64,000 bases of DNA from Planctomycetota bacterium (GCA_044222185.1 JBGANV010000002.1:416001-480000), one strand, 5' to 3'. Counted from the stretch's first letter, positions 36,669 to 52,585 are shown. Made by a program: numbers and translations. The notes: a model not told the origin generated them from the sequence alone.

Positions 36669-37127
36669 ATGCCGACGACCACACGAAACCCCGGCGACAT
36701 CTATCCGTCCTTGACGTACGACGATGCCGCCGCCGCCATCGATTGGCTCTGCCGCGCGTTCGGATTCGAGAAGAGGCTCGTCGTCCCGGGCCCGGATGGA
36801 ACGATCAAGCACTCCGAGCTTTCGCTGGGTGGTGCCGTCGTCATGGTGGGCTCGCCCAGACCGGCGGCCGGTCGAGTGAGCCCACGCAGTCTGGGAGGCG
36901 TGTGTCAGGCTCTCTGCGTCCACGTCGACGATGCGGACGCGCATTTCGCGCGCGCCAAGGCGGCCGGGGCTCAGATCCTCCAACCCGTCAAGGACGAGGA
37001 CTACGGATCGCGCGGCTACATGGCGAAGGACCTGGAAGACCACCAGTGGTACTTCGGCACCTATCGTCCGGGCGAACACTGGACGGAAACCCCGGTGGAC
37101 GGAGCGCCGCTCGAACCGCAGCGATAG
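36669..37127 (+). CDS. VOC/glyoxalase-bleomycin resistance family protein
   Basis: PSLTYDDAAAAIDWL..AFGF, HSEL, VDDADAH.ARA and YGSR...DLE.H.W. Confidence 0.9.
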   Translation: MPTTTRNPGDIYPSLTYDDAAAAIDWLCRAFGFEKRLVVPGPDGTIKHSELSLGGAVVMVGSPRPAAGRVSPRSLGGVCQALCVHVDDADAHFARAKAAGAQILQPVKDEDYGSRGYMAKDLEDHQWYFGTYRPGEHWTETPVDGAPLEPQR

Positions 37128-37368
37128 CGAGGATGAGCGGGCCGCCACCCCAGTCCGAACGACTCTGGCTTCTACTGGACGGAGACCCTGGGCGACGGAG
37201 CGCCGCTCGAACCGCAGCGCATCGAGGACGAGCGGCCGGATCGCTGGACGACCGCAGCGAAGCGGAGGCGTCCGGTCCGTCCGACGTCGGGACGCAGCCG
37301 GCACACGAGGATCAAGCGCCCGCGATTGCGTAAGCGCGCGACGACCGCGCCATCACCCCAGTCCGAAC
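37078..37368. repeat. Imperfect direct duplication at the junction of convergent genes
   Basis: 37078-37140 is repeated imperfectly at about 37174-37235; CACCCCAGTCCGAAC occurs at 37146 and 37354. Confidence 0.7.
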
Positions 37369-39410
37369 AACTTCTGCGTGTCGATGTGACGCACCCCGGC
37401 GCCGTTGGCGGTCGCCACCTCGACCATGTTCTCGGTTCCACCCGGCCCGTCACCGACGGCCCCGTTCCACAACGCGATGAGGACGACCGACGCCGCTGGG
37501 TCCGACAAACCATGGTGCAGGGTCCAGAGGTTGTTGCGATTCCAGATCGTGTACTGGGGTTTGTTCACGAGCCATGCGGGGAGGATCTTCGAGTCGCTGA
37601 GGATTCTCGGAGGTGAACAACGACAGATTGCGTCGAACCGTTCGACCCACCCGGGGCCCGAGTCGGCCACGGACTGCCGGATGTAGCTGTTGCGGTCGAG
37701 CGCGAGGAGAACCGTGGTCGGTATGCCGACCTCGCCGCAGACCTCGTGGAAGAGGATGTCGCCGCCGCTCGCTCCTCCCGAGAATCCGTGCACCGTCTGC
37801 CCTGCGGCTTTCGCCGTGCGCACGACCGCTTCGACCTGCTCCCGGATCGCGGAGCGGGCGACCCCCTCCATCGCGGCCGGGAATCTGGGCACCTTCCTTC
37901 CGGGTGCGTCGATGCGATGACCCGTGAAGACGATGTGGAGCTTGAGCTGTTGGGCGGCGGTGACCGGAATCGTTGCCGCGAGATCCACCGGTTCGGCACC
38001 GAGGCCTTTGAGTCCCGCGCGAGCCCGGTCAACCCGGACTCCGAGGTGAACGAAGATCGAGAGCTGGCGTGCGGCAGCAGACGGGTTGAAGCCCCGCGGC
38101 GCACTTTGGCCCGCCGGCGGTCTGGCGAGGTGCGCCGCGGCGGTGCGGTAGAGCGATCGCACGGACTCCGGCGTGGCGTCGCCGAAGGCTGCCGCCGCGT
38201 CGCCCCGGCTGAGCTCGATCCAGTCGTCGTTCGGATCCAGGGCGTGCGCGTGATCGAGCCCGACGGCGACGACGGCGGCGAGACGCTGGGCATCCTCGAG
38301 AATCTGCGTGGTTGCCGTCTGCGCAGCGTCGTCTCCGCCGTTGAGACTCGCCCAGAGGTCGGCCTGAGCGGCCGCAAGTCCCGCACGCAGTGAGAGCAGC
38401 GCCACGGCGTTGAGCGCCGCGAAGTAGTTGTTGAGGTTGGTCTTCGCACCCTCCGCGTAGGAATCGAGGGCTCGTTGCAGGCGGGCCGACTCGAGCGCGA
38501 GTCGCTGACGCTCGGGAAGCGTGGCGGCGGTTGCCCATTCGAGGATCCAGTCCGCCTTCTCGTTACTGCCCCGCAGCGCGAGGGTCTCGGATCGCTCCGC
38601 CGGTGTCAACGGCGACTGCAGCAGCCGCTCGAGGACGGCGTCCGATGCCGCGCGATCGCCTATCTTCTGGTCGATGGTCGCGAGCCGTTGAAGCGTCTCG
38701 ACGTCAGTCGGCCGGCGATCGCGAATCATCGTGTAGGTGCGCCGGGCATTGACGAGGTCGTTGATCTTGAACTGCGTTTCGGCCACGTGTCTCAGGCCGG
38801 GAATCGCCCAGCTCAGATCCGAAAGCTCGTCGGCAAACAGCGAGAGTCGAACCGTGTCGCGCGAGGTACGGGCATCCGCGACCTCGTCGAAAAAACTCGA
38901 ATCCGGGCGCACGTGGGCGGTTGGATCGAAGGACCCGAGCTCGGGCATCAGATCGTGAACCGGACTGTCCGTGCGTTCCGCCTGGACCGTCGCGAGGATC
39001 ACGTCCGCCAGATCGTCGACAGATCGGGCGGGTTCGACCGGCGAGTAGTCGAGGTAGCGGTCCGTGCGCAGGTCGAAAGGGACGTCGTCGCCCTTGCAGC
39101 GAATCAGAACCGTCGCGCGGTTGCGGAGCGCGTGGCGGATGCCCAGCTCGTAGTAGACGTTCGCGTTGTGGATCGACACGTCGGCGATGACGAGATCTGC
39201 GAGGAGCAGCTCCTGGAACATGTCACGCCGAATGCTGCCAGCTTGGAGGATCGGGATCGTCGTCGCGGCGAACACGCGCTGGGCCGACGCGCGCTCGAAC
39301 TTCCGAATCGCGGGCTGGATGAGCAGTGACTCGACCGCATCGAAGTCGACCTCGAGCTTCTGATCCGACGTCTTGCGGGATCCAAACGGGCGGACGATGA
39401 AGACGTGCAT
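37353..39410 (-). CDS. ASK1-like protein: NDT/TIR-like N-domain, TPR (MAP3K TRAF-binding-like) region and SLOG C-domain
   Basis: N-domain FIVRPFG...ADLVIADVSIHNANVYYELGIRHAL...PFDL; helical middle; C-domain FTGHRID, GGASGGD, RNN, ALWNG..GDGPGGT..MV. Confidence 0.75.
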   Translation of the reverse strand: MHVFIVRPFGSRKTSDQKLEVDFDAVESLLIQPAIRKFERASAQRVFAATTIPILQAGSIRRDMFQELLLADLVIADVSIHNANVYYELGIRHALRNRATVLIRCKGDDVPFDLRTDRYLDYSPVEPARSVDDLADVILATVQAERTDSPVHDLMPELGSFDPTAHVRPDSSFFDEVADARTSRDTVRLSLFADELSDLSWAIPGLRHVAETQFKINDLVNARRTYTMIRDRRPTDVETLQRLATIDQKIGDRAASDAVLERLLQSPLTPAERSETLALRGSNEKADWILEWATAATLPERQRLALESARLQRALDSYAEGAKTNLNNYFAALNAVALLSLRAGLAAAQADLWASLNGGDDAAQTATTQILEDAQRLAAVVAVGLDHAHALDPNDDWIELSRGDAAAAFGDATPESVRSLYRTAAAHLARPPAGQSAPRGFNPSAAARQLSIFVHLGVRVDRARAGLKGLGAEPVDLAATIPVTAAQQLKLHIVFTGHRIDAPGRKVPRFPAAMEGVARSAIREQVEAVVRTAKAAGQTVHGFSGGASGGDILFHEVCGEVGIPTTVLLALDRNSYIRQSVADSGPGWVERFDAICRCSPPRILSDSKILPAWLVNKPQYTIWNRNNLWTLHHGLSDPAASVVLIALWNGAVGDGPGGTENMVEVATANGAGVRHIDTQKLFGLG

Positions 39411-39411
39411 G

Positions 39412-40590
39412 TCAGGGCTTCCCGAGGAACGAACCGAAGTGGGCGGGGTCGACCTGGGCGGCGAGCCGTTGCCCCACGTGTCGGAGGTCGTCCATGTGCT
39501 CGGTCGAATCGAGCTTGGCAATCTTCTCGGGGTTGATGTCGGGTCGCGCACCGATCTCCTTCAGTCCGGCGTTCGAGAGTTCGACGTCGTAGCGAATGTA
39601 TGTGAACGCGCGGCCTTGGTCCTTCGAAAGAGGAAGGACGGCGCCGAAGTCATCGCGGATGACGAGGTCCCCGACTTCGCGGTCGAGAGGGCGCCCATAG
39701 GTGCAACGTCCGATCGTGCGGCAGGCGAGATCCTGGTCGAACGCCGCCTGGTTCATGAGAGCCAGAAGTGTGTTGAGTGCATCGGCAGCGACGTTGTGAT
39801 CGGGGTCGTCGCCCGGAGCTCCGATGTGGGGTGCGCAGCCGGTGCCGATCGAAACGACGAGGAGGTTCTTCTCTCCGCGCGGCCACTCGAGGCGGTACAT
39901 GGGCTCGGTCGCCATGCGGTACATGACGAAGGCCGGGTTGTTGTAGGCGGTCGTGCCGCCGTCGACGAACCGGAAGGTCTTTCTCGTATCCCGCGGATCC
40001 CAGCTCACCGCCTCAGGCGGGAAGTAGATCGGCGCCGCAGTGCTCGCGCGGACGATCTGCCAGAGCGGAACCTGGAGATTGCAATCGGGCCGGTCGGGCG
40101 CGTTGTACTTCGCGGACGGGTTCGTCGAGAGCAGCCACGCCGAGTCGGTGGAGTGATTGCGCGTCACCACGAGCATCAGGCATTGGAGGTCTTGCGGGTG
40201 CAGGGTCGTGCGGGGTCCGAACACCTCCTGCAACTTCTCCTGAAGTCCGTCCTTCTCGTAGAGGCTCTTCCACCGTTCGAACAGGCTCCGCTTCTGGAAC
40301 ACCGCCTTGCCGAACTCCGCATAGAAGTCGCGCATGGCGGTCACCGACATGCCTCGCGCGAAGCCCGCCGCGAGGATCGCCCCCGTGCTCGTTCCAGCGA
40401 TGTAATCGAAGAAGTCGCACAGGCGTGTCTGCGGACCCCAGTTGTCCTGGATCAGCTTCTCGATGCGCATGAGCACTTCGAGCGTGAGCACTCCGCGAAT
40501 GCCGCCGCCGTCGAGTGCGAGCATCCGCCGCGGGCGCGGCGTGCTGTAACGGTCGGCAAGATGACCCCAGAGCTTCCAGTCCGTCTTCAT
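39412..40590 (-). CDS. Patatin-like phospholipase
   Basis: LALDGGGIRG, FDYIAGTSTG, ASTAAPIYF, FVDGG..NNP, VSIGTG and YIRY. Confidence 0.93.
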   Translation of the reverse strand: MKTDWKLWGHLADRYSTPRPRRMLALDGGGIRGVLTLEVLMRIEKLIQDNWGPQTRLCDFFDYIAGTSTGAILAAGFARGMSVTAMRDFYAEFGKAVFQKRSLFERWKSLYEKDGLQEKLQEVFGPRTTLHPQDLQCLMLVVTRNHSTDSAWLLSTNPSAKYNAPDRPDCNLQVPLWQIVRASTAAPIYFPPEAVSWDPRDTRKTFRFVDGGTTAYNNPAFVMYRMATEPMYRLEWPRGEKNLLVVSIGTGCAPHIGAPGDDPDHNVAADALNTLLALMNQAAFDQDLACRTIGRCTYGRPLDREVGDLVIRDDFGAVLPLSKDQGRAFTYIRYDVELSNAGLKEIGARPDINPEKIAKLDSTEHMDDLRHVGQRLAAQVDPAHFGSFLGKP

Positions 40591-40721
40591 CGTCGTGACT
40601 CCCTCTTGTGCGCGCTCCGTGCATTCGTGGGAGAACCGGGTCGAAACCTGGAATGCTGCGGCGCGGCGAGGTCGTGATCCTACACGAGCACTGGGGGAGT
40701 CCGCGCCGGATCCCGCCCGCG

Positions 40722-41915
40722 TCACCGTCGCTCCGGCCCCATCGTCTCGACGGAGCCGGCGATCTCGGTCTCGGCTTTTTGCGGGCGCGAGCCGGCGCCG
40801 AGGCGGGGGCCCGAGATCCACGATGCGAGCGCGACGACGGCGAAGATCAGACTCATGATCCAGAAGCGGAGCACGACCTTCGTCTCGGCGACGCCCTGAT
40901 GCTGGAACCCGTGGTGCGCGGGAGCGCGGTAGAGGATCCGCTTGCCGATGCGAAGGATCCCGATCTGCTCCTGAATGAGGACGGAGAGCGCCTCGTAGAC
41001 GAAGATGGCGCCGACGATCAGGAACAGGAGCTCCTGTTTCGTGAGGACGGCCAGGGCCGCCAACGTCCCCCCGAGCGAAAGGGACCCGGTGTCACCCATG
41101 ATCACCTGGGCGGGGTAGCCGTTGAACCAGAGGAACCCGGTGGCAGCGCCGAGAAGCCCCGTGCAGTAGATCGCCAACTCCTCCATCCACGCATGGGCGG
41201 CCATGTCGCCGACGCCGCCGAGCATGTTCTTGCCGAGGATGATCCCGATGGCGCCGTAGACCGCGACCCCGAACGCCGCCGGCACGATGGCGAGGCCGTC
41301 GAGTCCATCGGCGAAGTTCACCGCGTTGCTGATCGCCATGAAGGCGACGAGGATCAGAATGCCGTACCCGAGGAACCCCAGGTCGGGGTGGAAGCCGAGG
41401 ATGGGCGTCGCCAGCGGGATGAAGAGCTTCGTGCGCTCGTCAGGCGAGAACGGCGACGTGCCGACGTTCAGGATCATCAACGCGAAGAAGAGACCGAACA
41501 GTGCCTGCGAGACCAGCTTGAACCGCCGGCCCAAGCCTCCGTCGGAGTGCTTGCGTCGCATCTTCAGGATGTCGTCCATGGCGCCGAGGCCGGCGAAGAA
41601 GCTCGTCGAGAGGAGGAGCAGGGGCGTGGGCCGGCTCCACAGATCGCACCAGAACAACGCGGAAAGCACGATGCCGAGAACGATGATGATGCCGCCCATG
41701 GTCGGCGTGCCGCTCTTGCTCGACGCGTATGCGTCCACGTACTCGCGAGGTCGATCGCGCAATCCGCGACGATAGAGCCCGGCGATCACGCGCGGTCCCA
41801 AGAGCCACACCACGAGGAACGCGGTGATGAACGCGGCGATGCAGCGAATCGAGGTGAGGGGCGCGATCTTCGCGTGCTGGCTCTCCATCACCAGCTTGTA
41901 GAGCATGTAGATCAC
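40722..41915 (-). CDS. mraY: Phospho-N-acetylmuramoyl-pentapeptide transferase (divergent, orphan)
   Basis: KSGTPTMGG, DDILK, NAVNFADGLDGL, GFLWFN.YPA.V.MGDTGS, APAHH and E.KVV.RFW. Confidence 0.9.
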   Translation of the reverse strand: MIYMLYKLVMESQHAKIAPLTSIRCIAAFITAFLVVWLLGPRVIAGLYRRGLRDRPREYVDAYASSKSGTPTMGGIIIVLGIVLSALFWCDLWSRPTPLLLLSTSFFAGLGAMDDILKMRRKHSDGGLGRRFKLVSQALFGLFFALMILNVGTSPFSPDERTKLFIPLATPILGFHPDLGFLGYGILILVAFMAISNAVNFADGLDGLAIVPAAFGVAVYGAIGIILGKNMLGGVGDMAAHAWMEELAIYCTGLLGAATGFLWFNGYPAQVIMGDTGSLSLGGTLAALAVLTKQELLFLIVGAIFVYEALSVLIQEQIGILRIGKRILYRAPAHHGFQHQGVAETKVVLRFWIMSLIFAVVALASWISGPRLGAGSRPQKAETEIAGSVETMGPERR

Positions 41916-44900
41916 GCCGGCTCTCCCATGGTCGCGGAGACCTGATCGAACTTGCGCCGCACGCGGAGGAGGTCTTCCTTGAGCTTGAACCGCGGCGTGA
42001 ACGAGTCGCAGGTGACGAGCACGTCATCCACCAGTTCGAGCAAGGCGCGTGCATCGAGGACGACGCCGCGCTTGTGGAGTTCTTCGTAGGCGCAGACGAC
42101 GGCGTCGCGCACTTGCCAGTTCGGGTGATAGTGCAGCTTCTTCAACACGGGCAGGATCGCGGGCTCTCGCGCCAGCAGGCCGATGGCGCGGACGGCATTC
42201 AGCGCCGTCTCGAAGCAGCGCGACTCGGTGAGGCCGATCAGCGCCGCGAGCGCCTTGTGCCGCGTCGCGTCGCTGAGGAACGGCGCGAGGTTGCCGAGGA
42301 CACGCGCGGCGCCCGCGCGCACCTCGAAGTAGGGATCGTTGAGCGCGGTCACGAGGGCGTTTGCCGTCACTTCGTCGGGGTCTCCGAGCTGCCCCAAGGC
42401 GACGACCGCGTTGCGTCTCACGAATCCCGGCTCGCGGAAATCCGCTCCAAGGAAGCGGAGGTAGAACGGCATCGCTTCGCGATTGGTCACGAGCTGCGCG
42501 AGCTTGGGTCGGGTCACGCGGAGCTGGAGCAGCCCCGCGAGCTTGCAGCCGATGTTGCGCTCCTGCCAGCGCGGCCGACTGAGCAGCTGCGTCACGCGCT
42601 TGTTCAGGTTGAACGTGAGCGCGAGCTGGGGGTTCTTCTCGACCCACTTCAGCAACTCACCTGCCGAGAGCCACTGGGGAACGACGGGCCGCACCTCGCG
42701 TGGCCGAGTCGGCTCGTGATCGTGGCTCTTGCGGTTGAAGCGAGCCAGCAGCTCCTCGATCTGCTCCGACTCCATGAGGAACGCCGTCCCCGCGAACGCG
42801 AACCCACCGAAGAAGCACGGCGTGAGAAGCTGGAGCGCGCGGTTGACGATCGTGCCGACGCCACCGGGGAACGATTCGAAGTGCCGTACCGCCGCCAGGC
42901 TCATGGCTGCGGCGATCGCCGCCGCGCAGGTCGCGAACGACGTCTGGAAGATCGTCGGCCAGAGATCCTTGAACCGGAATGCCGCGTCCTCTTCCCGCAA
43001 GTCGCGGTTGAGCAGCCACAGCCGGACGACCGCCGCGATGCTGAACGTCACGGTCGACGAAAGCGCGATGCCCGCGAACCCGAACGGAGTCTTCACGAGT
43101 GCCAGCGAGAGCGACACGTTGATGACGAGCGCCACGAGATTCGTCAGCGTCCCCGCGCCCATCTGATTGCGCGCCGCGAAGAACCGACCGGAGAGTGCCA
43201 CGAGGCCCCACCCCGGCAGTCCGATGGAGTAGGCCTGCAAGGCGGTCATCACGTAGGGCGCGCGCTCGGCCGTGAGCTTCCCGTATTGGAGCAACCCGCG
43301 AACGATCGGCTCGGCGAGGATCACCATGGCGACGGCCATGGGGACGAGGAGGAAGATCGTCCAGTTGATGCCGTTCACGATCATGCGCCGCGTCCACGCC
43401 TTGTCGCGGACCGCCATGCCTTCGCTGAGTTCCTTCAGCACGACCGTGTTGATCGTCTGCGCCACGAGGGCGAACGGAAGCAGGAACAACTGCCTGCCGA
43501 AGTCGAGCGCGCTGATCATCCCGTCCGACAGCGCGGACGCGATGCTGACGTCCACGATCTCGCCGGCCTTCGAGATCGTGGTGTCCGCCAGGATGTTCGG
43601 CGTGACGCGCCCCACGCGGCGGATGCCCGGCGTGCGCATGTCGAGACCGCGGGGGAATCGCAGTCCGTGGCCCTTGCGGATCTCCGGTCCGAACAGCGGC
43701 GGGAGCTGCACGAGGATCTGCCCCACGCCGCCTGCGAGCACGCCCCACCCGAGCGCCTGGATGCCGAAGCGGTCGTAGAACGACACGCCGGCGATCATGC
43801 CCACGCTGAACATGATCGACGCGTTCGCCGGCAGGGCGAACCGATTGAACGCCTTCAGCACGGCGGCGATGACGGCCGCGGCGGAGATGAGGATCAGGTA
43901 CGGGAACATGATCCGCGTGAGCTTGACCGCGTCGTCGACCATGCCCTTCGCGCGGAACCCCGGAGCGATGGAGTCGATCCACAGCGGCGTCGTGAGGATC
44001 GCGCCGACGGTGACGACGGCGCTCCCGAGGAGGGTGAGCTTCATCACGGTCGAGAAGAGGCGGTTCGCCTCGTCCCTGCGACCCGAGCGGAAGAGCTGAA
44101 CGAACGTCGGCAGGAACGCGCTGTCGACGGCCACCTCGGCGAACACGGCGCGGAAGAAGTTGCTGACCCGCAACCCGAACGTCATGAGGTCGGTCGCCTG
44201 ACCGAGGCCGAGCGTGCCGCCGGAGATCGCCACGCGGGCGAATCCCATCATGCGCGACGTCATGGTGCCGAACGCCGTCGCGAAGAGCTTCTTGCCCACG
44301 GCCATGGGGCGATCTTCGCGTTCGACCTCACGGTCCAGCACGCGGAACGTGAAGCGGTTCGGACCGATGGAGACGACGTCCTCCGGCGAAAGACGCGTGC
44401 GTTGCGCCACGGGCTTGCCGTTGATCGAGACCTGTCCGCGGCGCGGCACGATCCAGAACTCGGCGACGCCGCCGACGCGCGCCTCCTGCAGGAACGCCCG
44501 TTCGCCGTCGCCCCGATCGAGCAGGCGCACGTCCGCGAGCGCGCCCGCCGAGATGACGTTGTTGTTGAACCGCAGCTCGTGCGTGATTCCCGCTTCGTCG
44601 AGCAGCAATCCGACCTTCGCCGTGACGATGCGCTTGTAGATCACGGGCTCGCCGCCCGCGAGCGACTCGAGGACGTCGGCGTTGCGGCCCAAGGCCTCGG
44701 GGATGACCATGCGATGAGCCTGGCGGCCCATCTGGAGCAGGAGCTCCTCGTCGTCGAGGAGGTCGACGATGCGACGCCCCAGCTGATCGCCGTAGACGCG
44801 CGTGACGACACGGCCCTCCTCGTCCGCCGGCTCTTCGTAGAAGATCTCGGCGGCGCCCGCGTCGGCGAAGGCGAGCGCGTTCTCGAGCTGATGCTGCCCG

Positions 44901-45820
44901 GGCGCATCCGACTTCGGGATCAGGATCGAGGGCTTCCCGATGGCGCCCAGCTCCATGATCGTTCCCGCACCCGACCGCGCGACGACGAGGTCGGCGAGCG
45001 CGTAGACGTCCTCGATGTCCTCGATGAACCGCTTGCAGACGTAGCGGCCCGGGATCTCGGGCGCGAGGCCCATCTGCTTCAACCGTTCGCAGGTGTCGTC
45101 GAAGGCGTTGTATTCGGGGCTGTTGAAGAGCCCCGTCGAGTGGATGATCGCGACCTTCTCGTGGCGGAGCAGCGTCTTCAGCGCTTCCACGATGCCGCGG
45201 TTGATCGAGCGCGAGCCCATGCTTCCGCCGACGACGAACACGCACTTGGATTCGGGTGCGATGCCGTATTTCAACCGCGCCGCGTCGCGGGACGCCGTGC
45301 CGATGCGGCTGCGAACGGGATACCCGGTGTGGATCGCCTTCGGAGGCGGCAGTTCGCGGAGCGTGCGCTCGAACGTGATGCCCACGCGGGTGGCGAAACC
45401 TGCCAGCAGACGGTTGGCCGCCCCCGGTCGGGCGTTCTGTTCGTGGACGAAGATCCGCCGCTTGAGGATCGCCGCCGCGAGCACGGGCGGCACGGAAACG
45501 TACCCACCCGTTGCGACCACGAGATTGGGGCGGAACCGGACGATGATCCACAGCGATTGGAGGATTCCCGCGAGCACTCGCACGAGCATCGTCGCGAATC
45601 GGATCGGTCGCCGCGGCGACACGTGCTGCGCGGTGAGCACGCCCTTGAACGCGATGCCGTGTTGCTCGACGCGTTTCTCGTATCCGCCGGCGGAACCGAC
45701 GTAGAGAATGCGAGCCGACGGATCACGGCGCCGGATCTCGCCGATCATGGCGAGATTCGGTGTGACGTGTCCGCCCGTGCCACCGCCCGTGAAGAGGTAG
45801 CGTCTCCCCGTTTGGGTCAC
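41912..45820 (-). CDS. MurG-FHA-like-MurJ-HEAT fusion protein
   Basis: MurG (~45820-44660): GGGTGGH, TGGYVS, HEQN, GGSMG, RSGAGT, HQ..NA. FHA-like (~44610-44340). MurJ (~44300-42770): SRMMGFAR, R..FAE...SAFLP, RIMFPY, GIALS. HEAT-like tail: VRRNAVVALG, DPYFEVRAGAA..LG, NWQVR. One uninterrupted frame. Confidence 0.9.
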   Translation of the reverse strand: MTQTGRRYLFTGGGTGGHVTPNLAMIGEIRRRDPSARILYVGSAGGYEKRVEQHGIAFKGVLTAQHVSPRRPIRFATMLVRVLAGILQSLWIIVRFRPNLVVATGGYVSVPPVLAAAILKRRIFVHEQNARPGAANRLLAGFATRVGITFERTLRELPPPKAIHTGYPVRSRIGTASRDAARLKYGIAPESKCVFVVGGSMGSRSINRGIVEALKTLLRHEKVAIIHSTGLFNSPEYNAFDDTCERLKQMGLAPEIPGRYVCKRFIEDIEDVYALADLVVARSGAGTIMELGAIGKPSILIPKSDAPGQHQLENALAFADAGAAEIFYEEPADEEGRVVTRVYGDQLGRRIVDLLDDEELLLQMGRQAHRMVIPEALGRNADVLESLAGGEPVIYKRIVTAKVGLLLDEAGITHELRFNNNVISAGALADVRLLDRGDGERAFLQEARVGGVAEFWIVPRRGQVSINGKPVAQRTRLSPEDVVSIGPNRFTFRVLDREVEREDRPMAVGKKLFATAFGTMTSRMMGFARVAISGGTLGLGQATDLMTFGLRVSNFFRAVFAEVAVDSAFLPTFVQLFRSGRRDEANRLFSTVMKLTLLGSAVVTVGAILTTPLWIDSIAPGFRAKGMVDDAVKLTRIMFPYLILISAAAVIAAVLKAFNRFALPANASIMFSVGMIAGVSFYDRFGIQALGWGVLAGGVGQILVQLPPLFGPEIRKGHGLRFPRGLDMRTPGIRRVGRVTPNILADTTISKAGEIVDVSIASALSDGMISALDFGRQLFLLPFALVAQTINTVVLKELSEGMAVRDKAWTRRMIVNGINWTIFLLVPMAVAMVILAEPIVRGLLQYGKLTAERAPYVMTALQAYSIGLPGWGLVALSGRFFAARNQMGAGTLTNLVALVINVSLSLALVKTPFGFAGIALSSTVTFSIAAVVRLWLLNRDLREEDAAFRFKDLWPTIFQTSFATCAAAIAAAMSLAAVRHFESFPGGVGTIVNRALQLLTPCFFGGFAFAGTAFLMESEQIEELLARFNRKSHDHEPTRPREVRPVVPQWLSAGELLKWVEKNPQLALTFNLNKRVTQLLSRPRWQERNIGCKLAGLLQLRVTRPKLAQLVTNREAMPFYLRFLGADFREPGFVRRNAVVALGQLGDPDEVTANALVTALNDPYFEVRAGAARVLGNLAPFLSDATRHKALAALIGLTESRCFETALNAVRAIGLLAREPAILPVLKKLHYHPNWQVRDAVVCAYEELHKRGVVLDARALLELVDDVLVTCDSFTPRFKLKEDLLRVRRKFDQVSATMGEPA

Positions 45821-46088
45821 GAACCTGTTGACCTTTCGTTCCCGCGCGGACACCGCCAGGGCCGCGCTCCACTTCACCGTTCCCCACCGCCAGGGAAGGC
45901 GAATTCGAGAGCCGAAACGCACGCGAACGGCCGGGCAGAGAGTAGACGCCGCACCCCTGGGAAACAACGCGCCTGCAGGTGGGAAATCACGGCCCTTGCC
46001 TCATTCGTTCGATCGGGTGTAATCGCCACGATCCAGGCCCAACTGATCTGTCGCATCAGAGTCCCGGCTTGCGACGGAGTCCGCTCCC

Positions 46089-48752
46089 ATGAGATGGAAG
46101 TTCCTGACGCCAGCGTTCCTGTCGTTGTTCGTGGCACCGCTCCAGGCGCAGATCCCACCGTCCGTCCAGCTGCAGGCGGCGCAGGCGTGGTCGGGAACCG
46201 CGGGAAGCGCGAACGCCGGGTGGTCCATCGCGTCCGGCGGTGGCGTGATCCTGACGGGATCGCCGGGTGGCAGTCCGCCGGGACCCGGCGTCAACTCCTG
46301 GACAGGCGGGCCGCCGCCCCTCGGCCCGACGGGCGCGGGGACCGTGCAAGTGCGCGCGAGCGTCGGCGGTCAGGTGCTCAACACGTTGCTCGGTGAAGCC
46401 GGGGGCGATCGCTTCGGCTTCGTCGTGTGCAACATCGGGGACGTGGATGGGGATACGGCCCCAGACTTCGCCATCGGAGCTCCGTTCGGCGGCGGAGGTA
46501 CGGGCCGCGTCTATGTCTATGCGAATGCCGACCTTCAGGGGCCTTTCACGCCTTCGCCCTTGTTCGTGTTGTCGGGGTTCCTTCCCAACGATCGCTTCGG
46601 GGTGTCGGTGTGTGGGATCGGTGACATCACCGGCGACGGCCTCGACGAGTTCGTCGTTGGCGCGCCCAAGGCTGGGCTCTTCCACGTGGGCCAGGCCTAC
46701 GTCTTCAGTCCCCAACCCGGAGGAGCTCAGCTTCTCGCCCCGGTGATGAATGGCGAGGCGGTCCAACCCGTGTTCGGCGGAAGTCTGGCGGCGGTGGGGG
46801 ATCTGGACGGTGACGGTCGCTCGGAGATCGCCATCGGCGCATCGGGATCGGGCGACACGCCACAGGCGACGACGGGAGCGGGTCGCGTGTACATCTTCCG
46901 GGGGTCGAACCGGACGTTGCTCGGCCAGATCAACGGACCCGTCACCGGAGGCCTGTTCGGGTACAGCATCTCTCGCCTCGGCGACGTCAGCGTCCCCGCT
47001 GACGGAATCCCCGACTTCGCGGTTGGAGCGCCCCGTTCGGGATCCCTGACCGCGGACGATTCGGGGCGGGTGTTCATCTACTCGGGCGCGACACGTGCCC
47101 TGATGAGAACCTTCAGTCAGGCGACACCGGGCGACTTGCTCGGCGCCGCGGTCGTCGGGACGGGGAACGCCGACGCGGACGCGCAGCTCGAGGTGGCCAT
47201 CGGGTCGCCGGGTTCGGGCCTCGACGGACGCCCCGGTCGCGTGCTCCTCGTTGGCGCCAGCGATGGCGTCGTGAAATCCACCGTGTCCGGCGAACGGCCG
47301 AACGACCGGATGGGAATGAGCATCGGCGTCCTCGACGACATCAATTTCGACGGTCGCCCGGAGCTGCTCGCGGGAAGCCCGAACCACGACATGGCGGAGA
47401 ACGTGGCCAATCGCATGGACGATGGCCGCGGGATGGTCTTCGTCTTGCCTCGAACCCTCTACGTCTCCGCCACCGCGGGGCCTGGCGGGAACGGCTCCTA
47501 CGCGACGCCTTACGCCTCGATCGGGATGGCGATTGCGTCGGCGCGCCACGGCGACACGATCTTCGTCGGGCCGGGAACCTACGCCGAATCGCTGTTTCTC
47601 AACGTCAACGTCCGCCTCGTGGGGGCGGGCACGACCCCGACGATCATCGATCCGGGCCCCAACGCACTGTTAGGCGCCCTCTCCGTCGGCATGGGCACCG
47701 ACGACACGTGCCTCCTGGAAGGGTTGACCTTCCGACAGGTCCTCGCCACGGCCGGCGGGGCGACGATCCGGAACTGCCGCATCGGGCGGCTGAACGTCGT
47801 GCGCGGTTACCTGGGATCGACCTACGTCGACCGCGTCGACATCGTTCGGCTCGATCATTGCACGATCGACACGTTGCACGTCGAGGGCCCGATCCTTCCA
47901 ACGTCGCTGGGAGACCCCTATCCGCTCCAGGTCCAGATGGACCACTGCAGCATGCGCCCCATGGGCACGGGTCTCGCGCCCATCTTCACGCGTCTCGCGG
48001 AACTGACCCTGACCAATTCCATCATCTGGGACCCGACGTCGTCGGTCGACATCCTCGCGCCGACGGGGAGCCCGGTGACGACGCCCGGCCCCGAGGGGTC
48101 CCTCGTCCGGTCGCGGTATTGCGTGATGGCCTACAACACCGTCGGGTTCGATCCGACCAACGTCGTGGGCGATCCGAAGTTCGCGAACGCGTCGGCGGGG
48201 GATCTTCGACTGCGCATCGACTCGCCCGCCATCGACGCCGGCGATCCCGCGGCCCCGTTGGACCCCGACGGATCGCGAAGCGACGTCGGCGCGTCGTACG
48301 CTCCTCCCGACCACCTGCCGGGGTCGGCGGACCGCGTCTACCTTGCGACGGCGCTGAACGCGTTGCCGCTCGGCGCGGCCGGGTCGGACATCCATCCCGC
48401 CCAGCCCGGCAACGCGGCGACCTTCTCGGTCTGGACGACGAACACGGCCCTCCTCGGAAGTCCCATGCTCGTCCTGGCGCAGGGATACCCGGCTCTCAAT
48501 TCGATTCCGCCGACGCCGGGGCTTCCCGCGTTCATCCGACTGAATCCCTACGTGCTGCCGTACTTCGTCCTCTTCGGCACGGCGTCGCCGATCGGGCTTC
48601 CGGTCCTGTCGGGGACGCCGACGACCTTCGCGCTGGGCATCCCGCCCGGGCTCGCGGGGATCACCATTCGGGTCCAGGCCTTCGCCGTGTCACCGCTGGC
48701 GCTGGCAGCCGGCATCGCCGCATCTTCGGCCCACGAGTTCGTCGTCAACTGA
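46089..48752 (+). CDS. Secreted FG-GAP (integrin-alpha propeller) + beta-helix protein with conserved C-terminal domain
   Basis: Signal peptide; repeated FG...GD.DGDG..D..IGAP; YV....G.GS...P..SI...GD.I.V.PGTY; SPAIDAG...DPDG...D.GA; terminal domain. Confidence 0.88.
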   Translation: MRWKFLTPAFLSLFVAPLQAQIPPSVQLQAAQAWSGTAGSANAGWSIASGGGVILTGSPGGSPPGPGVNSWTGGPPPLGPTGAGTVQVRASVGGQVLNTLLGEAGGDRFGFVVCNIGDVDGDTAPDFAIGAPFGGGGTGRVYVYANADLQGPFTPSPLFVLSGFLPNDRFGVSVCGIGDITGDGLDEFVVGAPKAGLFHVGQAYVFSPQPGGAQLLAPVMNGEAVQPVFGGSLAAVGDLDGDGRSEIAIGASGSGDTPQATTGAGRVYIFRGSNRTLLGQINGPVTGGLFGYSISRLGDVSVPADGIPDFAVGAPRSGSLTADDSGRVFIYSGATRALMRTFSQATPGDLLGAAVVGTGNADADAQLEVAIGSPGSGLDGRPGRVLLVGASDGVVKSTVSGERPNDRMGMSIGVLDDINFDGRPELLAGSPNHDMAENVANRMDDGRGMVFVLPRTLYVSATAGPGGNGSYATPYASIGMAIASARHGDTIFVGPGTYAESLFLNVNVRLVGAGTTPTIIDPGPNALLGALSVGMGTDDTCLLEGLTFRQVLATAGGATIRNCRIGRLNVVRGYLGSTYVDRVDIVRLDHCTIDTLHVEGPILPTSLGDPYPLQVQMDHCSMRPMGTGLAPIFTRLAELTLTNSIIWDPTSSVDILAPTGSPVTTPGPEGSLVRSRYCVMAYNTVGFDPTNVVGDPKFANASAGDLRLRIDSPAIDAGDPAAPLDPDGSRSDVGASYAPPDHLPGSADRVYLATALNALPLGAAGSDIHPAQPGNAATFSVWTTNTALLGSPMLVLAQGYPALNSIPPTPGLPAFIRLNPYVLPYFVLFGTASPIGLPVLSGTPTTFALGIPPGLAGITIRVQAFAVSPLALAAGIAASSAHEFVVN

Positions 48753-48781
48753 CGTCCGGTCCGCCAATGGAGGGTGAAACG

Positions 48782-51700: not shown

Positions 51701-52585
51701 CGCCCGGACATCCTCGTCGGGGCCAGGGGTTACTCGCAAAGCCTGGGGAAGGTCTACGTGATCTCGGGTGCGACCGGCGCCGTGGTGCGCGTGGTGCAAG
51801 GAAGCGCGGTCGGTGACCGGTTCGGCTTTTCGCTCGCCTCCGGGATGGACGTGAACGCGGACGACTTCCCGGACTTCGTCGTCGGGGCGCCATTCGACGA
51901 CGACGTGGCGGTCGATGCCGGGGCCGTCCATCTGGTGTCTGGCTTCGACGGGCGGAGTCTCGCGAAGTACCGGGGATCGGCCGCGGCGGACAACATGGGC
52001 CTCTTCGTCGCGCTCGGCGGTGACGTCGACGGCGATGGGATCCCGGATGCGGCCGGTGGGTCGCCGTTCAACGATCAGAACGGCAGCAGTTCCGGGCGGG
52101 CCCAACTATTCCGTGGACCGCTCTCGCCGCGCTTCCCTGGCACCGCCGACGACTTCATCACCCTCGCCTCCGTGTCGAATGGTCCATTCCGCGTGGGAAG
52201 GGAGCGGGACGTCGTCAGTCTCGTCGCCGGCAACCTCCTCACGGTCTGGTGGGGTTCACCCACGAGCCGCTTCGACTTCCAGCCGTTCTTCCTCGCCGCG
52301 GAGAGCTTCGTGCCGGGCCAACGGCCGGCCGTACCCTCGTGCTATCCCGCGGCGCCGTGCTTCTCGGGCCTGCAGTTCGCACCGCTCCCGCAGAACGTCT
52401 TGATGGGACCCGTCGGTGGTCCGTTCGGCTTTCCGCTGCTCTTCCCGGGCGGCAATCAGGCGAACTTCCTCGTCCCACCCGGGCTCGGCGGGCTGAGGGT
52501 GCTGTTGCAGCCAGTGGTACTCTCGGGCCTCGCGCTCAACGGGTCCTACGCGGCGGCGAATGCGATCGTGCTCGATCTGAACTGA
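48782..52585 (+). CDS. Large secreted FG-GAP repeat protein with two Cys-containing beta-sandwich domains and conserved C-terminal domain
   Basis: RBS GGAGG and signal peptide; two D[GV]WF...T..[IF]DT...ACN...G.TY..R modules; more than 10 FG-GAP repeats; terminal domain. Confidence 0.88.
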   Translation: MNATCRIGCIVAACFLSCATCVMAQFEDCSPAATLVFPGINPGPPFGGDGTSFTNSGMSASVGFSSPCGATNDDGWFRYVATRTGTTVIDTATPLGFSVLALGDTVIDVHTACSQAAHLACNGGLVQSGGLKARVSFQATAGVTYYVRISSPSIAAADFYLTIAEHPAVVNDEPYAPLTLLAGLNPGGGAGNGGFYAMAGATPTPSLDAICPISPAVPVPPPPSNDVWFTFTATTTETTVFDTCEGVMPLGGAATLTLFSLGGATTSYVACNQDACPGCGGGARLTASLNAGTTYLLRVASAPVAPPVPFRVRVTGSGVSNGPAFSPFEGRTIVAPPAASHADVNWTVLGDANQDGTPDLVVGIPGDATNGWGAGRVVVLSGSNGAQLSAFANAPAGARLGASVCCVGDVGNDGVPDFAVSAPFLAGATPAVAGEVFIVSATGQQIGTWATFAKAPFAYGGVWGSGLAAVGDWDLDGVMNLCVTDWGEAGTSVRTPLYVIGDRNGDGVDDVARFRIPSGSASAFLATQSGTVESIPYLFLGSPWPVTIPNTLVGFPTQVCAAGRIDSDAISDYLLGIPGDNTTGSLAGKVVVVSGATHAFVTQFLGANAGDRFGTAVAAVGDFNFDGVPDFAIGAPYDDTNGNDAGSVTVVSSSTGQVIQKFFGDLPGDRFGWSLHRADAPARPGRTRLFASANPVLAQRAPYGRFLGSDRTVVQGDSANDECGYSVAIVPDADGDGRSDLIVGIRKEEVGSLTDAGVARLVSGSTGATIRQWNGTASFEQFGQTVVLVGDIDHDGTRDVAFGAPHASPAGSGSNSGQVKVVSGATGQLLRTFNGLAAGGWFGFDIADAGDVDGDGTADIVSGAQFHDLPGLTDAGVVRVHSGATGAVIHQWNGTVAGGKLGISLAGVGDVDGDGRADVAVGASSDGTFGTAAGRVFVFSGATGAMIRDLHPAGANAEFGYSLAPAGDLDRDGRPDILVGARGYSQSLGKVYVISGATGAVVRVVQGSAVGDRFGFSLASGMDVNADDFPDFVVGAPFDDDVAVDAGAVHLVSGFDGRSLAKYRGSAAADNMGLFVALGGDVDGDGIPDAAGGSPFNDQNGSSSGRAQLFRGPLSPRFPGTADDFITLASVSNGPFRVGRERDVVSLVAGNLLTVWWGSPTSRFDFQPFFLAAESFVPGQRPAVPSCYPAAPCFSGLQFAPLPQNVLMGPVGGPFGFPLLFPGGNQANFLVPPGLGGLRVLLQPVVLSGLALNGSYAAANAIVLDLN

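What the first reader, a model, noticed from the sequence alone, without database searches (positions are those of the whole stretch)
37353..40590. Patatin + NDT/TIR-like-TPR-SLOG pair: candidate nucleotide-signalling defence system
Seen: an intact patatin (GGGIRG, GTSTG, DGG) ends 1 bp before a ~685-aa protein. That protein has a nucleoside-deoxyribosyltransferase/TIR-like domain (NANVYYELG), a TPR-like core and a SLOG-like domain (FTGHR, GGASGGD, RN, GGT). Established: patatins are cell-killing effectors in CBASS (CapV), SLOG is the signal receptor in Thoeris ThsA, and TIR/NDT-like folds cleave nucleotides. The N-domain plus TPR region resembles the regulatory region of animal ASK1 kinases. 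Inference: sensor, signal generator and receptor sit in one protein that controls a phospholipase effector, with no CD-NTase cyclase present.
Basis: partly seen in the sequence, partly recalled or inferred. Interest (0 to 1): 0.78.

Follow-up and report, generated by a model that had tools for sequence, protein, structure and literature searches.

The report
Patatin lipase with ThsI-like sensor
Two tightly coupled genes, a membrane-lipid-cutting patatin enzyme and a three-domain nucleotide-handling protein built like the regulatory part of animal ASK1, form a widespread predicted anti-phage module. It has been catalogued in print but never tested.

Summary
On the minus strand, an intact 392-aa patatin (39412-40590) stops one base before a 685-aa protein, B (37353-39410).

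B has three domains:
- a DrHyd/TIR-class N-glycosidase head with the YELG glutamate;
- an ASK1-like TPR-S middle;
- a YpsA-clade SLOG tail.

B-like genes lie next to this patatin family in 55 of 80 loci fetched with B. In 43 of 80 loci fetched with the patatin, a full-length B is present. These loci span about ten phyla. Where patatin is missing, TIR, SLATT, SIR2, lipase or CHAT proteins are neighbours or are fused to B.

This is the effector-swapping pattern of a conflict system, so the defence reading is well supported by context. The order of signal steps is not shown.

The finding is not new in kind. DrHyd-TPR cores with TIR, YpsA or patatin partners have been catalogued in print. TIR-partnered forms (BcTir/Tpr; type VIII Thoeris ThsI) protect against phage. 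The TIR-less patatin form with a fused SLOG is untested.

This scan met the same pair before on other DNA (e1-4290609, e1-4637484).

The window's copy is intact but divergent. It sits among housekeeping genes.

The parts
39412..40590 (-). Patatin-like phospholipase gene (392 aa plus stop), the predicted effector
   Evidence: Pfam Patatin E 1.2e-27, residues 24-221. PADLOC CBASS phospholipase effector model PDLC00758, E 3.5e-44. NCBIfam CBASS_lipase scores 121.4 bits, below its cut-off of 200. GGGIRG, GTSTG and DGG are read. Ser68 and Asp210 are invariant in 37 sequences.
39411..39411 (-). One-base spacer between the patatin stop (TGA) and the ATG of B, which suggests coupled translation
   Evidence: Sequence read.
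37353..39410 (-). Gene for protein B (685 aa plus stop): DrHyd head, TPR-S middle, SLOG tail
   Evidence: Full-length homologues.
38976..39410 (-). B residues 1-145: DrHyd/TIR-class Rossmannoid N-glycosidase-like domain with N82, N84 and E88 (NANVYYELG)
   Evidence: VIA-align: TIR 4c6t Z 10.7, MilB 4ohr Z 10.5, cryptic TIR 5for Z 10.2. A profile of 34 N-domains gives weak DNPH1/Rcl hits (E 0.17-2) that align the YELG Glu. PADLOC TIR effector model, E 6.4e-6, residues 57-118. N82, N84 and E88 are invariant.
37986..38918 (-). B residues about 165-475: ASK1-like TPR-S solenoid, the predicted sensor or regulatory part
   Evidence: Pfam TPR-S, 40.8 bits against a cut-off of 27.6, residues 222-339. 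ASK1 central regulatory region 5ulm Z 15.8, the best of the helical matches. Homologue P0191 also hits MAP3K_TRAF_bd.
37356..37946 (-). B residues 489-685: SLOG domain, closest to the YpsA clade
   Evidence: YpsA 2nx2 Z 16.5. Domain model pLDDT 95.8. Foldseek: YpsA E 2.3e-6, then DprA, ShosA, Moco carrier protein and the TRPM2 chanzyme.
40591..40721 (-). 131-bp gap upstream of the patatin, after the MraY-like gene on the same strand. A promoter could lie here, but none was recognised.
   Evidence: ORF map. The consensus scan found no promoter or terminator in 36900-41000.

Best explanation
This is a two-gene conflict (most likely anti-phage, abortive-infection) module. Protein B is the sensing and nucleotide-processing part. 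The patatin is the membrane-destroying effector.

Proposed course of events:
1. The ASK1-like TPR-S solenoid holds the N-terminal DrHyd N-glycosidase in check until an infection cue arrives.
2. The DrHyd head then cleaves NAD+ or a related nucleotide, using Glu88 with Asn82 and Asn84. This depletes the nucleotide and yields an ADP-ribose-type product.
3. The fused YpsA-type SLOG tail makes or binds such a nucleotide. It stands where a separate TIR protein stands in type VIII Thoeris and BcTir/Tpr.
4. The co-translated patatin is switched on and hydrolyses membrane phospholipids, killing or arresting the cell.

Shown here: the gene pair, the three folds, the conserved catalytic residues, the conserved pairing, and the swapping of effectors.

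Taken from papers: a DrHyd-TPR protein of this architecture needs the equivalent Asn and Glu for NAD+ depletion and defence, and it binds or responds to cADPR.

Inferred: the trigger, the substrate, the role of SLOG, and how the lipase is activated.
For: Pairing:
- Patatin lies within the flank in 55 of 80 B-anchored loci, and in 51 of them directly upstream on the same strand.
- Full-length B is present in 43 of 80 patatin-anchored loci. A further 12 have a SLOG-only ORF and 6 have a DrHyd-TPR-only ORF.
- The two locus sets share contigs and are not independent.

Effector swapping:
- B is fused to SLATT (P0154, P0181), to TIR (P0135) and to SIR2 plus an ATPase (P0185).
- ParA/NB-ARC/nSTAND ATPase regions are fused in front of B (P0164, P0173, P0180).
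- In loci without patatin, the most common families among 80 neighbour ORFs are TIR_2 (6), TPR-S (4) and DUF7379/CHAT/LCAT (3). SLATT, a lipase-like alpha/beta hydrolase and a metallophosphatase were seen singly.
- Three-gene and four-gene rows occur: patatin-B-SLATT (L028, L040, L044), patatin-B-TIR (L045), TIR-patatin-B-TIR (L035) and TIR-SLATT-B (L080).

Catalytic residues:
- B's N82, N84 and E88 are invariant.
- Patatin Ser68 and Asp210 are invariant.
- The motif N-x-N-x3-E has the spacing of BcTpr N80, N82 and E86. Mutating N82 or E86 abolished NAD+ depletion and defence in that system (10.1101/2023.05.26.542521 section 6).

Experimentally tested systems of like architecture:
- The type VIII Thoeris effector ThsI is described as 'CMP hydrolase' plus the TPR predicted by Aravind. 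It responds to cADPR (10.64898/2025.12.03.692087 section 8).
- MilB, a CMP hydrolase, is a top fold match of B's head.

Distribution is patchy, as for mobile accessory genes:
- One copy in the window's own genome.
- Found in 1 of 30 relatives searched, and there only as a partial match.
- Yet present in about ten phyla.
Against: - The window is not a defence island. The 17 neighbouring ORFs scanned are cell-wall, transporter, regulator, FG-GAP and kinase genes. There is no tRNA, and GC content is unremarkable.
- 24 of 80 B-anchored loci with adequate flank have no patatin. Some have only housekeeping neighbours, such as Peripla_BP_6 and peptidase M24.
- Only about one in ten outer neighbours of the pair match conflict or defence models. 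Examples are SLATT 4, TIR_2 4 and DUF4062 4 of 101, and ThsB 3 of 101. No background rate was computed, so enrichment is not shown.
- B has no significant sequence match to any SLOG or DrHyd Pfam model. The DNPH1 alignment is below significance. TIR and DrHyd tie in fold score.
- No direct alignment to ThsI or BcTpr was possible.
- The two papers disagree on whether TIR or the DrHyd-TPR protein makes the cADPR-type molecule.
- The window's B departs from the family at 28 of 183 highly conserved columns. These include a TPR-S block and four SLOG positions, so this copy may work differently or be under relaxed constraint.
- No experiment exists for any patatin-partnered form.
Confidence: 0.6

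Rival explanations
1. B is only a receiver and effector, like ThsI. It carries an extra SLOG nucleotide sensor and listens to a cADPR-type signal made in trans by TIR proteins encoded elsewhere in the genome. The patatin is a second effector of the same signal.
For: - In the tested type VIII Thoeris the TIR makes cADPR and the DrHyd-TPR protein responds to it (10.64898/2025.12.03.692087 section 8).
- TIR genes lie beside B in a minority of loci: L033, L035, L038, L042, L045, L059, L070, L076 and L080.
- The window's genome has 8 TIR_2 ORFs.
- SLOG domains of the YpsA-like clade are described as sensors of variant cADPR (PMC9503650, passages).
Against: - Most loci have no TIR within 6 kb. TIR_2 was found in 4 of 101 outer neighbours of the pair.
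- The nearest TIR_2 ORF in this genome is about 263 kb from the window.
- Defence systems of this kind are as a rule self-contained operons (general knowledge, not tested here).
Confidence: 0.15
2. No diffusible signal is involved. B acts as an ASK1- or STAND-like scaffold whose TPR-S binds a phage protein. Assembly then directly activates the DrHyd NADase, and by contact the patatin. The SLOG domain serves oligomerisation or nucleic-acid binding, as in DprA.
For: - Effectors are often fused to B in one polypeptide (SLATT, TIR, SIR2). This fits control in cis.
- STAND ATPases are fused in front of B.
- The one-base gene spacing suggests that the two proteins are made together.
- DprA and ShosA are among the fold matches of the tail.
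- A TPR-S-patatin fusion exists in L002.
Against: - The patatin family also pairs with small SLOG-only ORFs that lack any TPR (12 of 80). This is easier to read as a small-molecule link.
- BcTpr binds cADPR at 1.9 uM (10.1101/2023.05.26.542521 section 6).
Confidence: 0.15
3. The pair is not immunity at all. It is a housekeeping or stress-response pair that links nucleotide or redox state to membrane lipid remodelling, as ASK1 links redox stress to signalling.
For: - In the window the pair follows cell-envelope genes on the same strand (MurG-MurJ fusion, MraY-like GT4).
- Codon usage is that of the host.
- Many loci have ordinary neighbours.
- The BcTir/Tpr preprint reports effects on reactive oxygen species (abstract).
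Against: - The gene is missing from 29 of 30 relatives searched and partial in the remaining one, yet it is scattered over about ten phyla.
- Its partners and fusions are cell-killing conflict domains: TIR, SLATT, SIR2, CHAT, NACHT and nSTAND.
Confidence: 0.07
4. The window's own copy is a drifting, possibly inactive member of an otherwise functional family.
For: - B deviates at 28 of 183 columns that at least 90% of 27 homologues share. Seven of these lie in one TPR-S block, and D661N and R669N lie in the SLOG tail.
- It has the longest branch among nearby rows in the SLOG tree (0.74 against a median of 0.4, quick tree).
- Its best homologue is only 46% identical.
Against: - Both frames are intact.
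- GC3 is 0.80-0.81.
- The DrHyd catalytic residues and the patatin dyad are kept.
- The patatin deviates at only 4 of 84 conserved columns.
Confidence: 0.1

Closest known systems
DRHyd-TPR-S ('Tpr core', ASK-signalosome-like) conflict systems predicted by Burroughs and Aravind 2020 (J Bacteriol 202:e00365-20). That paper is not held and I did not read it. I know it only through its citations in PMC8195603 and 10.1101/2023.05.26.542521.
   Same: - An N-glycosidase head plus a TPR-S core.
- Variable partner genes, listed in the 2023 preprint (section 9) as TIR (28 of 78), YpsA (5), patatin (4), LSDAT and calcineurin, 'fused and rearranged'.
- The same partners appear here.
- The evolutionary link to the ASK1 regulatory region (PMC8195603, passage).
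   Different: - Here the YpsA-type SLOG is fused to the core, and patatin is the dominant partner (55 of 80).
- Whether exactly this arrangement is drawn in the 2020 paper could not be checked.
- No function has been tested for it.
Type VIII Thoeris: TIR (ThsB) plus ThsI ('CMP hydrolase' + TPR), bioRxiv 10.64898/2025.12.03.692087
   Same: - An effector with a MilB/CMP-hydrolase-like head and the Aravind TPR. B residues 1-475 have this make-up.
- ThsI and SLATT effectors occasionally share one TIR operon, as in L080 (TIR-SLATT-B).
   Different: - There is no TIR gene in the window or in most loci.
- B carries an extra SLOG domain and has a patatin partner.
- Sequence relatedness to ThsI was not tested, because the sequences are in supplements that are closed.
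BcTir/Tpr of Bacillus cereus, bioRxiv 10.1101/2023.05.26.542521
   Same: - BcTpr is a MilB-like glycosidase (residues 1-189) plus a TPR (190-415).
- Its essential N82 and E86, and its N80, are spaced as B's N84, E88 and N82.
- It binds cADPR and depletes NAD+.
   Different: - BcTpr is 415 aa without a SLOG domain.
- Its partner is a TIR, not a patatin.
- The residue correspondence is read from motif spacing only, not from an alignment.
CBASS with CapV patatin effector
   Same: A patatin-fold phospholipase serves as the killing effector of a nucleotide-signalling system. The best PADLOC hits of the window's patatin are CBASS phospholipase models.
   Different: - It is not a CapV equivalog (121.4 bits against a cut-off of 200).
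- No CD-NTase is nearby.
- The C-terminal 130 residues are conserved within this family and lie outside the CapV-model match.
Type I Thoeris ThsA (SIR2-SLOG)
   Same: A SLOG domain is joined to an NAD-consuming or killing effector. One homologue of B even carries SIR2 (P0185).
   Different: - The window's protein has no SIR2.
- ThsA was not among the fold matches listed. The closest is YpsA.
Animal ASK1 (MAP3K5) N-terminal regulatory region
   Same: The head-plus-TPR arrangement matches over model residues 5-473 (8qgy, Z 12.5). The TPR matches best of all helical proteins (5ulm, Z 15.8).
   Different: - B has no kinase domain.
- B has a SLOG tail instead.
- Sequence identity is 10-12%.

Membership tests
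Patatin-like phospholipase (PF01734) | Match to the family model above its curated cut-off | tested here: met
   97.8 bits against a cut-off of 27.7, E 1.2e-27
Patatin-like phospholipase (PF01734) | Gly-rich oxyanion loop, GxSxG serine and DG[GA] aspartate (motif definitions recalled) | tested here: met
   GGGIRG, GTSTG and DGG are present. S68 and D210 are invariant in 37 sequences.
Patatin-like phospholipase (PF01734) | Lipid acyl hydrolase activity | not testable with these tools
   Needs an enzyme assay
CapV, CBASS cGAMP-activated phospholipase (NF041079) | Score above the equivalog cut-off | tested here: not met
   121.4 bits against a cut-off of 200
CapV, CBASS cGAMP-activated phospholipase (NF041079) | Adjacent CD-NTase/SMODS cyclase | tested here: not met
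   None among the 17 neighbouring ORFs scanned against Pfam
SLOG superfamily, YpsA-like clade | Rossmannoid SLOG fold, closest to YpsA | tested here: met
   2nx2: Z 16.5, rmsd 2.9, 160 of 178 aligned. Foldseek E 2.3e-6, TM 0.61/0.67 with the domain model. The next matches are DprA, ShosA, Moco carrier and TRPM2.
SLOG superfamily, YpsA-like clade | Match to a SLOG sequence model | tested here: inconclusive
   No Pfam SLOG family at E up to 1. The profile of 34 C-domains finds no solved relative by sequence.
SLOG superfamily, YpsA-like clade | Binding or processing of a nucleotide ligand | not testable with these tools
   The glycine loops GGASGGD and GPGGT are conserved, but the ligand is unknown.
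DrHyd (nucleoside deoxyribosyltransferase / DNPH1 / MilB) superfamily | Fold match to a member | tested here: inconclusive
   MilB 4ohr Z 10.5, but TIR 4c6t Z 10.7 and 5for Z 10.2 tie with it. The N domain of the model has blocks with pLDDT 51-91.
DrHyd (nucleoside deoxyribosyltransferase / DNPH1 / MilB) superfamily | Catalytic Glu in the ...YELG... strand-loop | tested here: met
   E88 is invariant. The profile aligns it with the YELG of DNPH1/Rcl in 11 of 14 listed chains, though at E 0.17-2, which is below significance.
TPR-S / ASK1 central regulatory region | Match to PF20308 above its cut-off, and a fold match to the ASK1 TPR | tested here: met
   40.8 bits against a cut-off of 27.6. 5ulm Z 15.8 and 8qgy Z 12.5.
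Type VIII Thoeris (ThsB + ThsI) | Effector with a CMP-hydrolase-like head and TPR | tested here: met
   Met at the level of domains only. There is no sequence comparison with ThsI.
Type VIII Thoeris (ThsB + ThsI) | TIR (ThsB) gene in the operon | tested here: not met
   None among the 17 neighbouring ORFs scanned, and all 8 TIR_2 ORFs of the genome lie outside the window, the nearest about 263 kb away. TIR is a neighbour in only a minority of related loci.
Type VIII Thoeris (ThsB + ThsI) | Activation by canonical cADPR | not testable with these tools
   Needs growth or enzyme assays with cADPR isomers
Type I Thoeris ThsA | SIR2 domain joined to SLOG | tested here: not met
   No SIR2 in B. SIR2 was seen only in the fused homologue P0185.
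DRHyd-TPR-S core conflict systems (Burroughs and Aravind 2020, as summarised in 10.1101/2023.05.26.542521 section 9) | DrHyd head plus TPR-S core, with variable TIR / YpsA / patatin / LSDAT / calcineurin partners | tested here: met
   Core. Partners: patatin in 55 of 80. TIR, SLATT, CHAT and metallophosphatase. LSDAT_prok in 2 of 107. SLOG is fused in B itself.
DRHyd-TPR-S core conflict systems (Burroughs and Aravind 2020, as summarised in 10.1101/2023.05.26.542521 section 9) | Protection against phage | not testable with these tools
   Shown only for TIR-partnered forms, in the two preprints

The most novel reading that the evidence does not exclude
The patatin-B pair may be a self-contained, TIR-less branch of Thoeris-type immunity. 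In this reading the fused SLOG and/or DrHyd domain itself makes an NAD-derived messenger. This patatin family, through its own conserved C-terminal 130 residues, would then be a new class of lipase activated by ADP-ribose-type signals.

The small SLOG-only plus patatin pairs would be the minimal form of the system. By descent, the N-terminal region of animal ASK1 would be a relic nucleotide sensor that may still bind such a ligand.
Probability: 0.2. Interest if true: 0.7.

Novelty: new member of a known kind. Interest (0 to 1): 0.4.

Why it matters
If the pair works as proposed, it would show that NAD-derived immune signalling of the Thoeris type can run without a TIR protein. It would also add a phospholipase to the effectors that such signals control.

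The family is large. In the 50%-clustered library 380 clusters score E<=1e-30. It spans about ten phyla, so the pair would be a common soil-bacterial defence that current defence catalogues (PADLOC 2.0) do not name.

It is also the closest bacterial model for the still poorly understood regulatory region of human ASK1.

For this window alone the value is modest. It is one more, rather divergent, instance of a system already catalogued in print and already met by this scan.

Tried and rejected
- Complex prediction of the patatin with B residues 150-685: the verdict was 'no answer' (score 0.00), which is no evidence either way. The DrHyd head had to be left out because of the size limit.
- Foldseek with the whole 685-aa model gave only generic TPR proteins. 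ASK1 8qgy was rank 26. The domain matches came from VIA-align wide and from the separate C-domain model.
- Profile searches of solved structures by sequence:
  - Whole protein: generic TPRs only.
  - C-domain: four unrelated chains at E 0.3-1.5.
  - N-domain: DNPH1/Rcl, but only at E 0.17-2.
- I tried to fetch loci of SLOG-less DrHyd-TPR homologues with P0223. This gave one locus (L081), and its ORF there is a full-length 686-aa B. The link to stand-alone ThsI-like genes therefore rests on the six DrHyd-TPR-only partners seen beside patatins.
- Two apparent patatin-B fusions (L090, L142) were rejected. The long open frame upstream of B is in a different reading frame from the patatin.
- Promoter, terminator and tRNA scans found nothing. 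This is uninformative in a genome with 67% GC.
- Papers:
  - Burroughs and Aravind 2020 is not held.
  - Searches 'TPR-S / DRHyd' and 'deoxyribohydrolase / ASK signalosome / TPR-S / SLOG' gave noise or nothing.
  - The search 'Thoeris + patatin + SLOG' returned only the BcTir/Tpr preprint. The search 'SLOG + patatin + TPR' returned it plus an unrelated 2008 paper on Rickettsia genomes. So I found no experimental paper on a patatin-partnered form in the held library.
- The careful tree search did not finish in the time allowed. Only the quick tree is reported.

Full report
WHAT IS THERE

On the minus strand of the window, two ORFs with the host's codon bias (GC3 0.80-0.81) lie head to tail.
- A 392-aa patatin occupies 40590-39412.
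- A 685-aa protein, called B here, occupies 39410-37353.
- The junction reads TGA-C-ATG, a spacer of one base.

The patatin is intact.
- It matches Pfam Patatin at E 1.2e-27.
- It carries GGGIRG, GTSTG and DGG.
- Ser68 and Asp210 are invariant in 37 aligned partners.
- Its best defence-library hits are CBASS phospholipase effector models (3.5e-44).
- It fails the CapV equivalog cut-off (121.4 of 200 bits).
- No cyclase is among the 17 neighbouring ORFs scanned.

THE THREE DOMAINS OF B

By sequence, only Pfam TPR-S is recognised (40.8 bits, residues 222-339). There is also a weak hit to a PADLOC TIR effector model at residues 57-118 (6.4e-6).

An AlphaFold2 model built on 28 homologues has pLDDT 86. 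It was searched against about 48,000 solved chains.
- The tail (489-684) matches YpsA 2nx2 best of everything (Z 16.5, rmsd 2.9, 160 aligned). DprA and ShosA follow.
- The middle (169-473) matches the ASK1 central regulatory region 5ulm (Z 15.8), ahead of all generic TPR proteins.
- The ASK1 cryo-EM chain 8qgy aligns over residues 5-473 (Z 12.5, 373 aligned, rmsd 9.3).
- The head (1-144) matches a plant TIR (4c6t, Z 10.7), the CMP hydrolase MilB (4ohr, Z 10.5) and a 'cryptic TIR' (5for, Z 10.2).

The tail folded alone (pLDDT 95.8) again finds YpsA first (Foldseek E 2.3e-6). DprA, ShosA, Moco carrier protein and the TRPM2 chanzyme follow. All of these are members of the SLOG superfamily as that superfamily is described in PMC9503650 (passages) and, from my recall, in Burroughs et al. 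2015.

A profile of 34 N-domains hits DNPH1/Rcl in 11 of 14 listed chains. The E-values are only 0.17-2. The alignment places the family's invariant YELG glutamate on that of DNPH1.

I therefore call the head DrHyd/TIR-class, probably DrHyd.

HOW WIDESPREAD IT IS

- Full-length relatives of 650-700 aa at 40-46% identity fill the top of both protein searches. One gave 1413 hits. The other gave 380 clusters at E<=1e-30 in the 50%-clustered library.
- The best 80 come from Acidobacteriota, Bacteroidota, Pseudomonadota, Myxococcota, Actinomycetota, Verrucomicrobiota, Planctomycetota, Nitrospirota, Cyanobacteria and Longimicrobiales.
- The window's own 7.1-Mb genome has one copy.
- Among 30 relatives searched, only one has a match, and it is partial.
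- This is the patchy, phylum-crossing spread of a mobile accessory gene.

THE PAIRING

Anchored on B, 55 of 80 loci have a homologue of the window's patatin within 6 kb.
- 51 lie directly upstream on the same strand.
- 3 lie downstream.
- 1 is divergent.
- 24 loci with adequate flank have none, and 1 locus is too short to tell.

Anchored on the patatin, the best 80 of at least 560 loci divide as follows:
- 43 have a full-length B.
- 12 have only a small SLOG ORF of about 185-280 aa.
- 6 have only a DrHyd-TPR ORF of about 450 aa, plus one more locus cut by the contig end.
- 1 is unclear.
- 17 have nothing, and 4 of these have short flanks.

The two sets share contigs and are not independent.

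A quick tree was made; the careful search did not finish. It puts five SLOG-only rows in one well-supported clade and three Bacteroidota rows in another. The stand-alone form has therefore persisted in at least two lineages. Some of the scattered ones may be remnants too.

WHAT REPLACES OR JOINS THE PATATIN

Fusion proteins among the homologues:
- SLATT behind B (P0154, P0181).
- TIR behind B (P0135).
- SIR2 plus an ABC-type ATPase behind B (P0185).
- ParA/NB-ARC/nSTAND ATPase regions in front of B (P0164, P0173, P0180).

In loci without patatin, I scanned 80 neighbour ORFs from 23 loci, using my own crude ORF calls.
- The commonest families are TIR_2 (6), TPR-S (4) and a roughly 1840-aa DUF7379/LCAT/CHAT/TPR-S protein (3).
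- adds SLATT (L080), a lipase-like alpha/beta hydrolase (L034), a metallophosphatase (L047) and DUF4062-iSTAND (L001).
- It also shows plain housekeeping neighbours.

Around patatin-B pairs, among 101 flanking ORFs:
- The top families are SLATT/DUF4231 (4), TIR_2 (4), DUF4062 (4), TPR-S (3), CAP12-type TIR (2) and NACHT (2).
- PADLOC ThsB matches 3 of the 101.
- Concrete gene rows are patatin-B-SLATT (L028, L040, L044), patatin-B-TIR (L045), TIR-patatin-B-TIR (L035) and TIR-SLATT-B (L080).

Around patatins without a full-length B, 107 ORFs were scanned, and these include the partial partners themselves. The top families are TIR_2 (8), TPR-S (6), MAP3K_TRAF_bd (5), nSTAND1 (3), SLATT (3) and LSDAT_prok (2).

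No background rate was computed, so I do not claim enrichment. I claim only that the recurring partners are conflict-system domains.

WHAT IS KNOWN

[quoted passage not shown] It cites Burroughs and Aravind 2020, which is not held.
- PMC9503650 (passages) unites TIR, DrHyd and SLOG as one class of Rossmannoid nucleotide binders or processors. It describes YpsA-like SLOG domains as sensors of variant cADPR.
- The preprint 10.1101/2023.05.26.542521 (abstract, sections 6 and 9) reports that the Bacillus cereus pair BcTir/BcTpr protects against phage.
  - BcTpr is a MilB-like glycosidase (1-189) plus a TPR (190-415).
  - N82A and E86A abolish NAD+ depletion and defence.
  - BcTpr binds cADPR at 1.9 uM.
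  - Among 78 'Tpr core' operons there are 28 TIR, 5 YpsA and 4 patatin assemblies, with domains 'fused and rearranged'.
- The preprint 10.64898/2025.12.03.692087 (passages, section 8) defines type VIII Thoeris. A TIR makes canonical cADPR on infection. [quoted passage not shown] SLATT effectors (type VII) respond to the same molecule and sometimes share an operon with ThsI.
- B's N82-A-N84-x3-E88 has the spacing of BcTpr's N80-P-N82-x3-E86. These residues are invariant in the family. This correspondence is read from motif spacing, not from an alignment.

HOW IT MOST LIKELY WORKS

I commit, at about 0.6, to a conflict module in which B senses and processes a nucleotide and the patatin kills through the membrane.

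Shown here: the coupled gene pair, the folds, the kept catalytic residues, the conserved adjacency, and the swapping of effectors.

Taken from the two preprints: a DrHyd-TPR protein of this build degrades NAD+ or another nucleotide, and it responds to or binds cADPR.

Inferred:
- The TPR-S holds the head in check until an infection cue arrives.
- The fused SLOG takes the place of the missing TIR, either as maker or as reader of an ADP-ribose-type molecule.
- The lipase is switched on by that molecule or by contact with B.

The patatin family also pairs with bare SLOG ORFs. This tilts me towards a small-molecule link between SLOG and lipase.

Rivals:
- A trans signal from TIR proteins encoded elsewhere (0.15). 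The genome has eight TIR_2 ORFs, none in the window.
- Purely contact-driven activation (0.15).
- A non-immune stress role (0.07).
- Separately, the window's own copy may be drifting (0.1).

THE WINDOW'S COPY

It sits downstream of cell-envelope genes on the same strand (a MurG-MurJ-HEAT fusion and a MraY-like GT4). It is convergent with ArsR/AHSA1/glyoxalase genes. There is no tRNA, integrase or GC anomaly nearby.

B departs from the residue shared by at least 90% of 27 homologues at 28 of 183 such columns.
- Seven lie in one TPR-S block. The family consensus is F..ED.NHFYSGLNALAL, and the window has A, N, N, F, A, A and V at the conserved places.
- Four lie in the SLOG tail.
- The patatin departs at only 4 of 84.
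- Both frames are intact and the catalytic residues are kept.
- I cannot say whether this means a changed specificity or a relaxed constraint.

VERDICT

The anatomy and the defence-type context hold. The signal logic is open.
- The kind is already in print, and TIR-partnered forms have been tested there.
- This is a new member of a known kind. It belongs to a large subfamily, patatin plus SLOG-fused core without TIR, that has not been tested.
- The same pair was reported earlier in this scan on other DNA (e1-4290609, e1-4637484). My results agree with those notes and were reached before I read them.
- Interest is 0.4.

Noticed in passing
window 41912-45967 (-) and 40722-41915 (-): A single 1351-aa ORF combines both halves of MurG (GT28 N and C), a MurJ lipid II flippase and HEAT repeats. 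A MraY-like GT4 ORF follows on the same strand. This is an unusual fusion of cell-wall precursor enzymes.
   Followed up: no
window 46089-48752, 47708-52585, 52592-55348 (+): Two very large FG-GAP repeat ORFs, whose frames overlap so their starts are uncertain. There is also a Ser/Thr kinase fused to an FGE-sulfatase domain.
   Followed up: no
window 37353-39410 (-), B residues 322-336 and 532-669: The window's B replaces seven residues of a TPR-S block that 25-27 of 27 homologues share. It also carries D661N and R669N in the SLOG tail, among 28 departures at 183 conserved columns.
   Followed up: partly
L101, L128, L143, L147, L151, L149, L160, L164, L098, L157, L135, L114: The same patatin family sits beside small SLOG-only ORFs (about 185-280 aa) in 12 of 80 patatin-anchored loci. 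Two groups of them form supported clades in a quick tree. This may be a minimal two-gene form.
   Followed up: partly
L002:286-3093 (+): A 935-aa protein with TPR-S in front of a patatin domain lies directly upstream of an ordinary patatin-B pair.
   Followed up: no
L070:8064-13631, L073:8068-13590, L076:8070-13595 (+): A protein of about 1840 aa lies directly downstream of B. It carries DUF7379 and LCAT-like lipase domains, a CHAT protease and TPR-S. In L070 and L076 a TIR-containing gene is divergent upstream.
   Followed up: partly
L029, L038 (B ORFs of about 1195-1199 aa); proteins P0180, P0164, P0173: Some forms of B carry a ParA-like plus nSTAND/NB-ARC ATPase region in front. In L038 a TIR gene lies directly upstream. 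This matches the earlier scan note e1-760236.
   Followed up: partly
G000 contigs C5, C6, C7, C9, C11, C15: The window's genome encodes eight TIR_2-domain ORFs, in open frames of 341-1442 aa. All lie outside the window.
   Followed up: no
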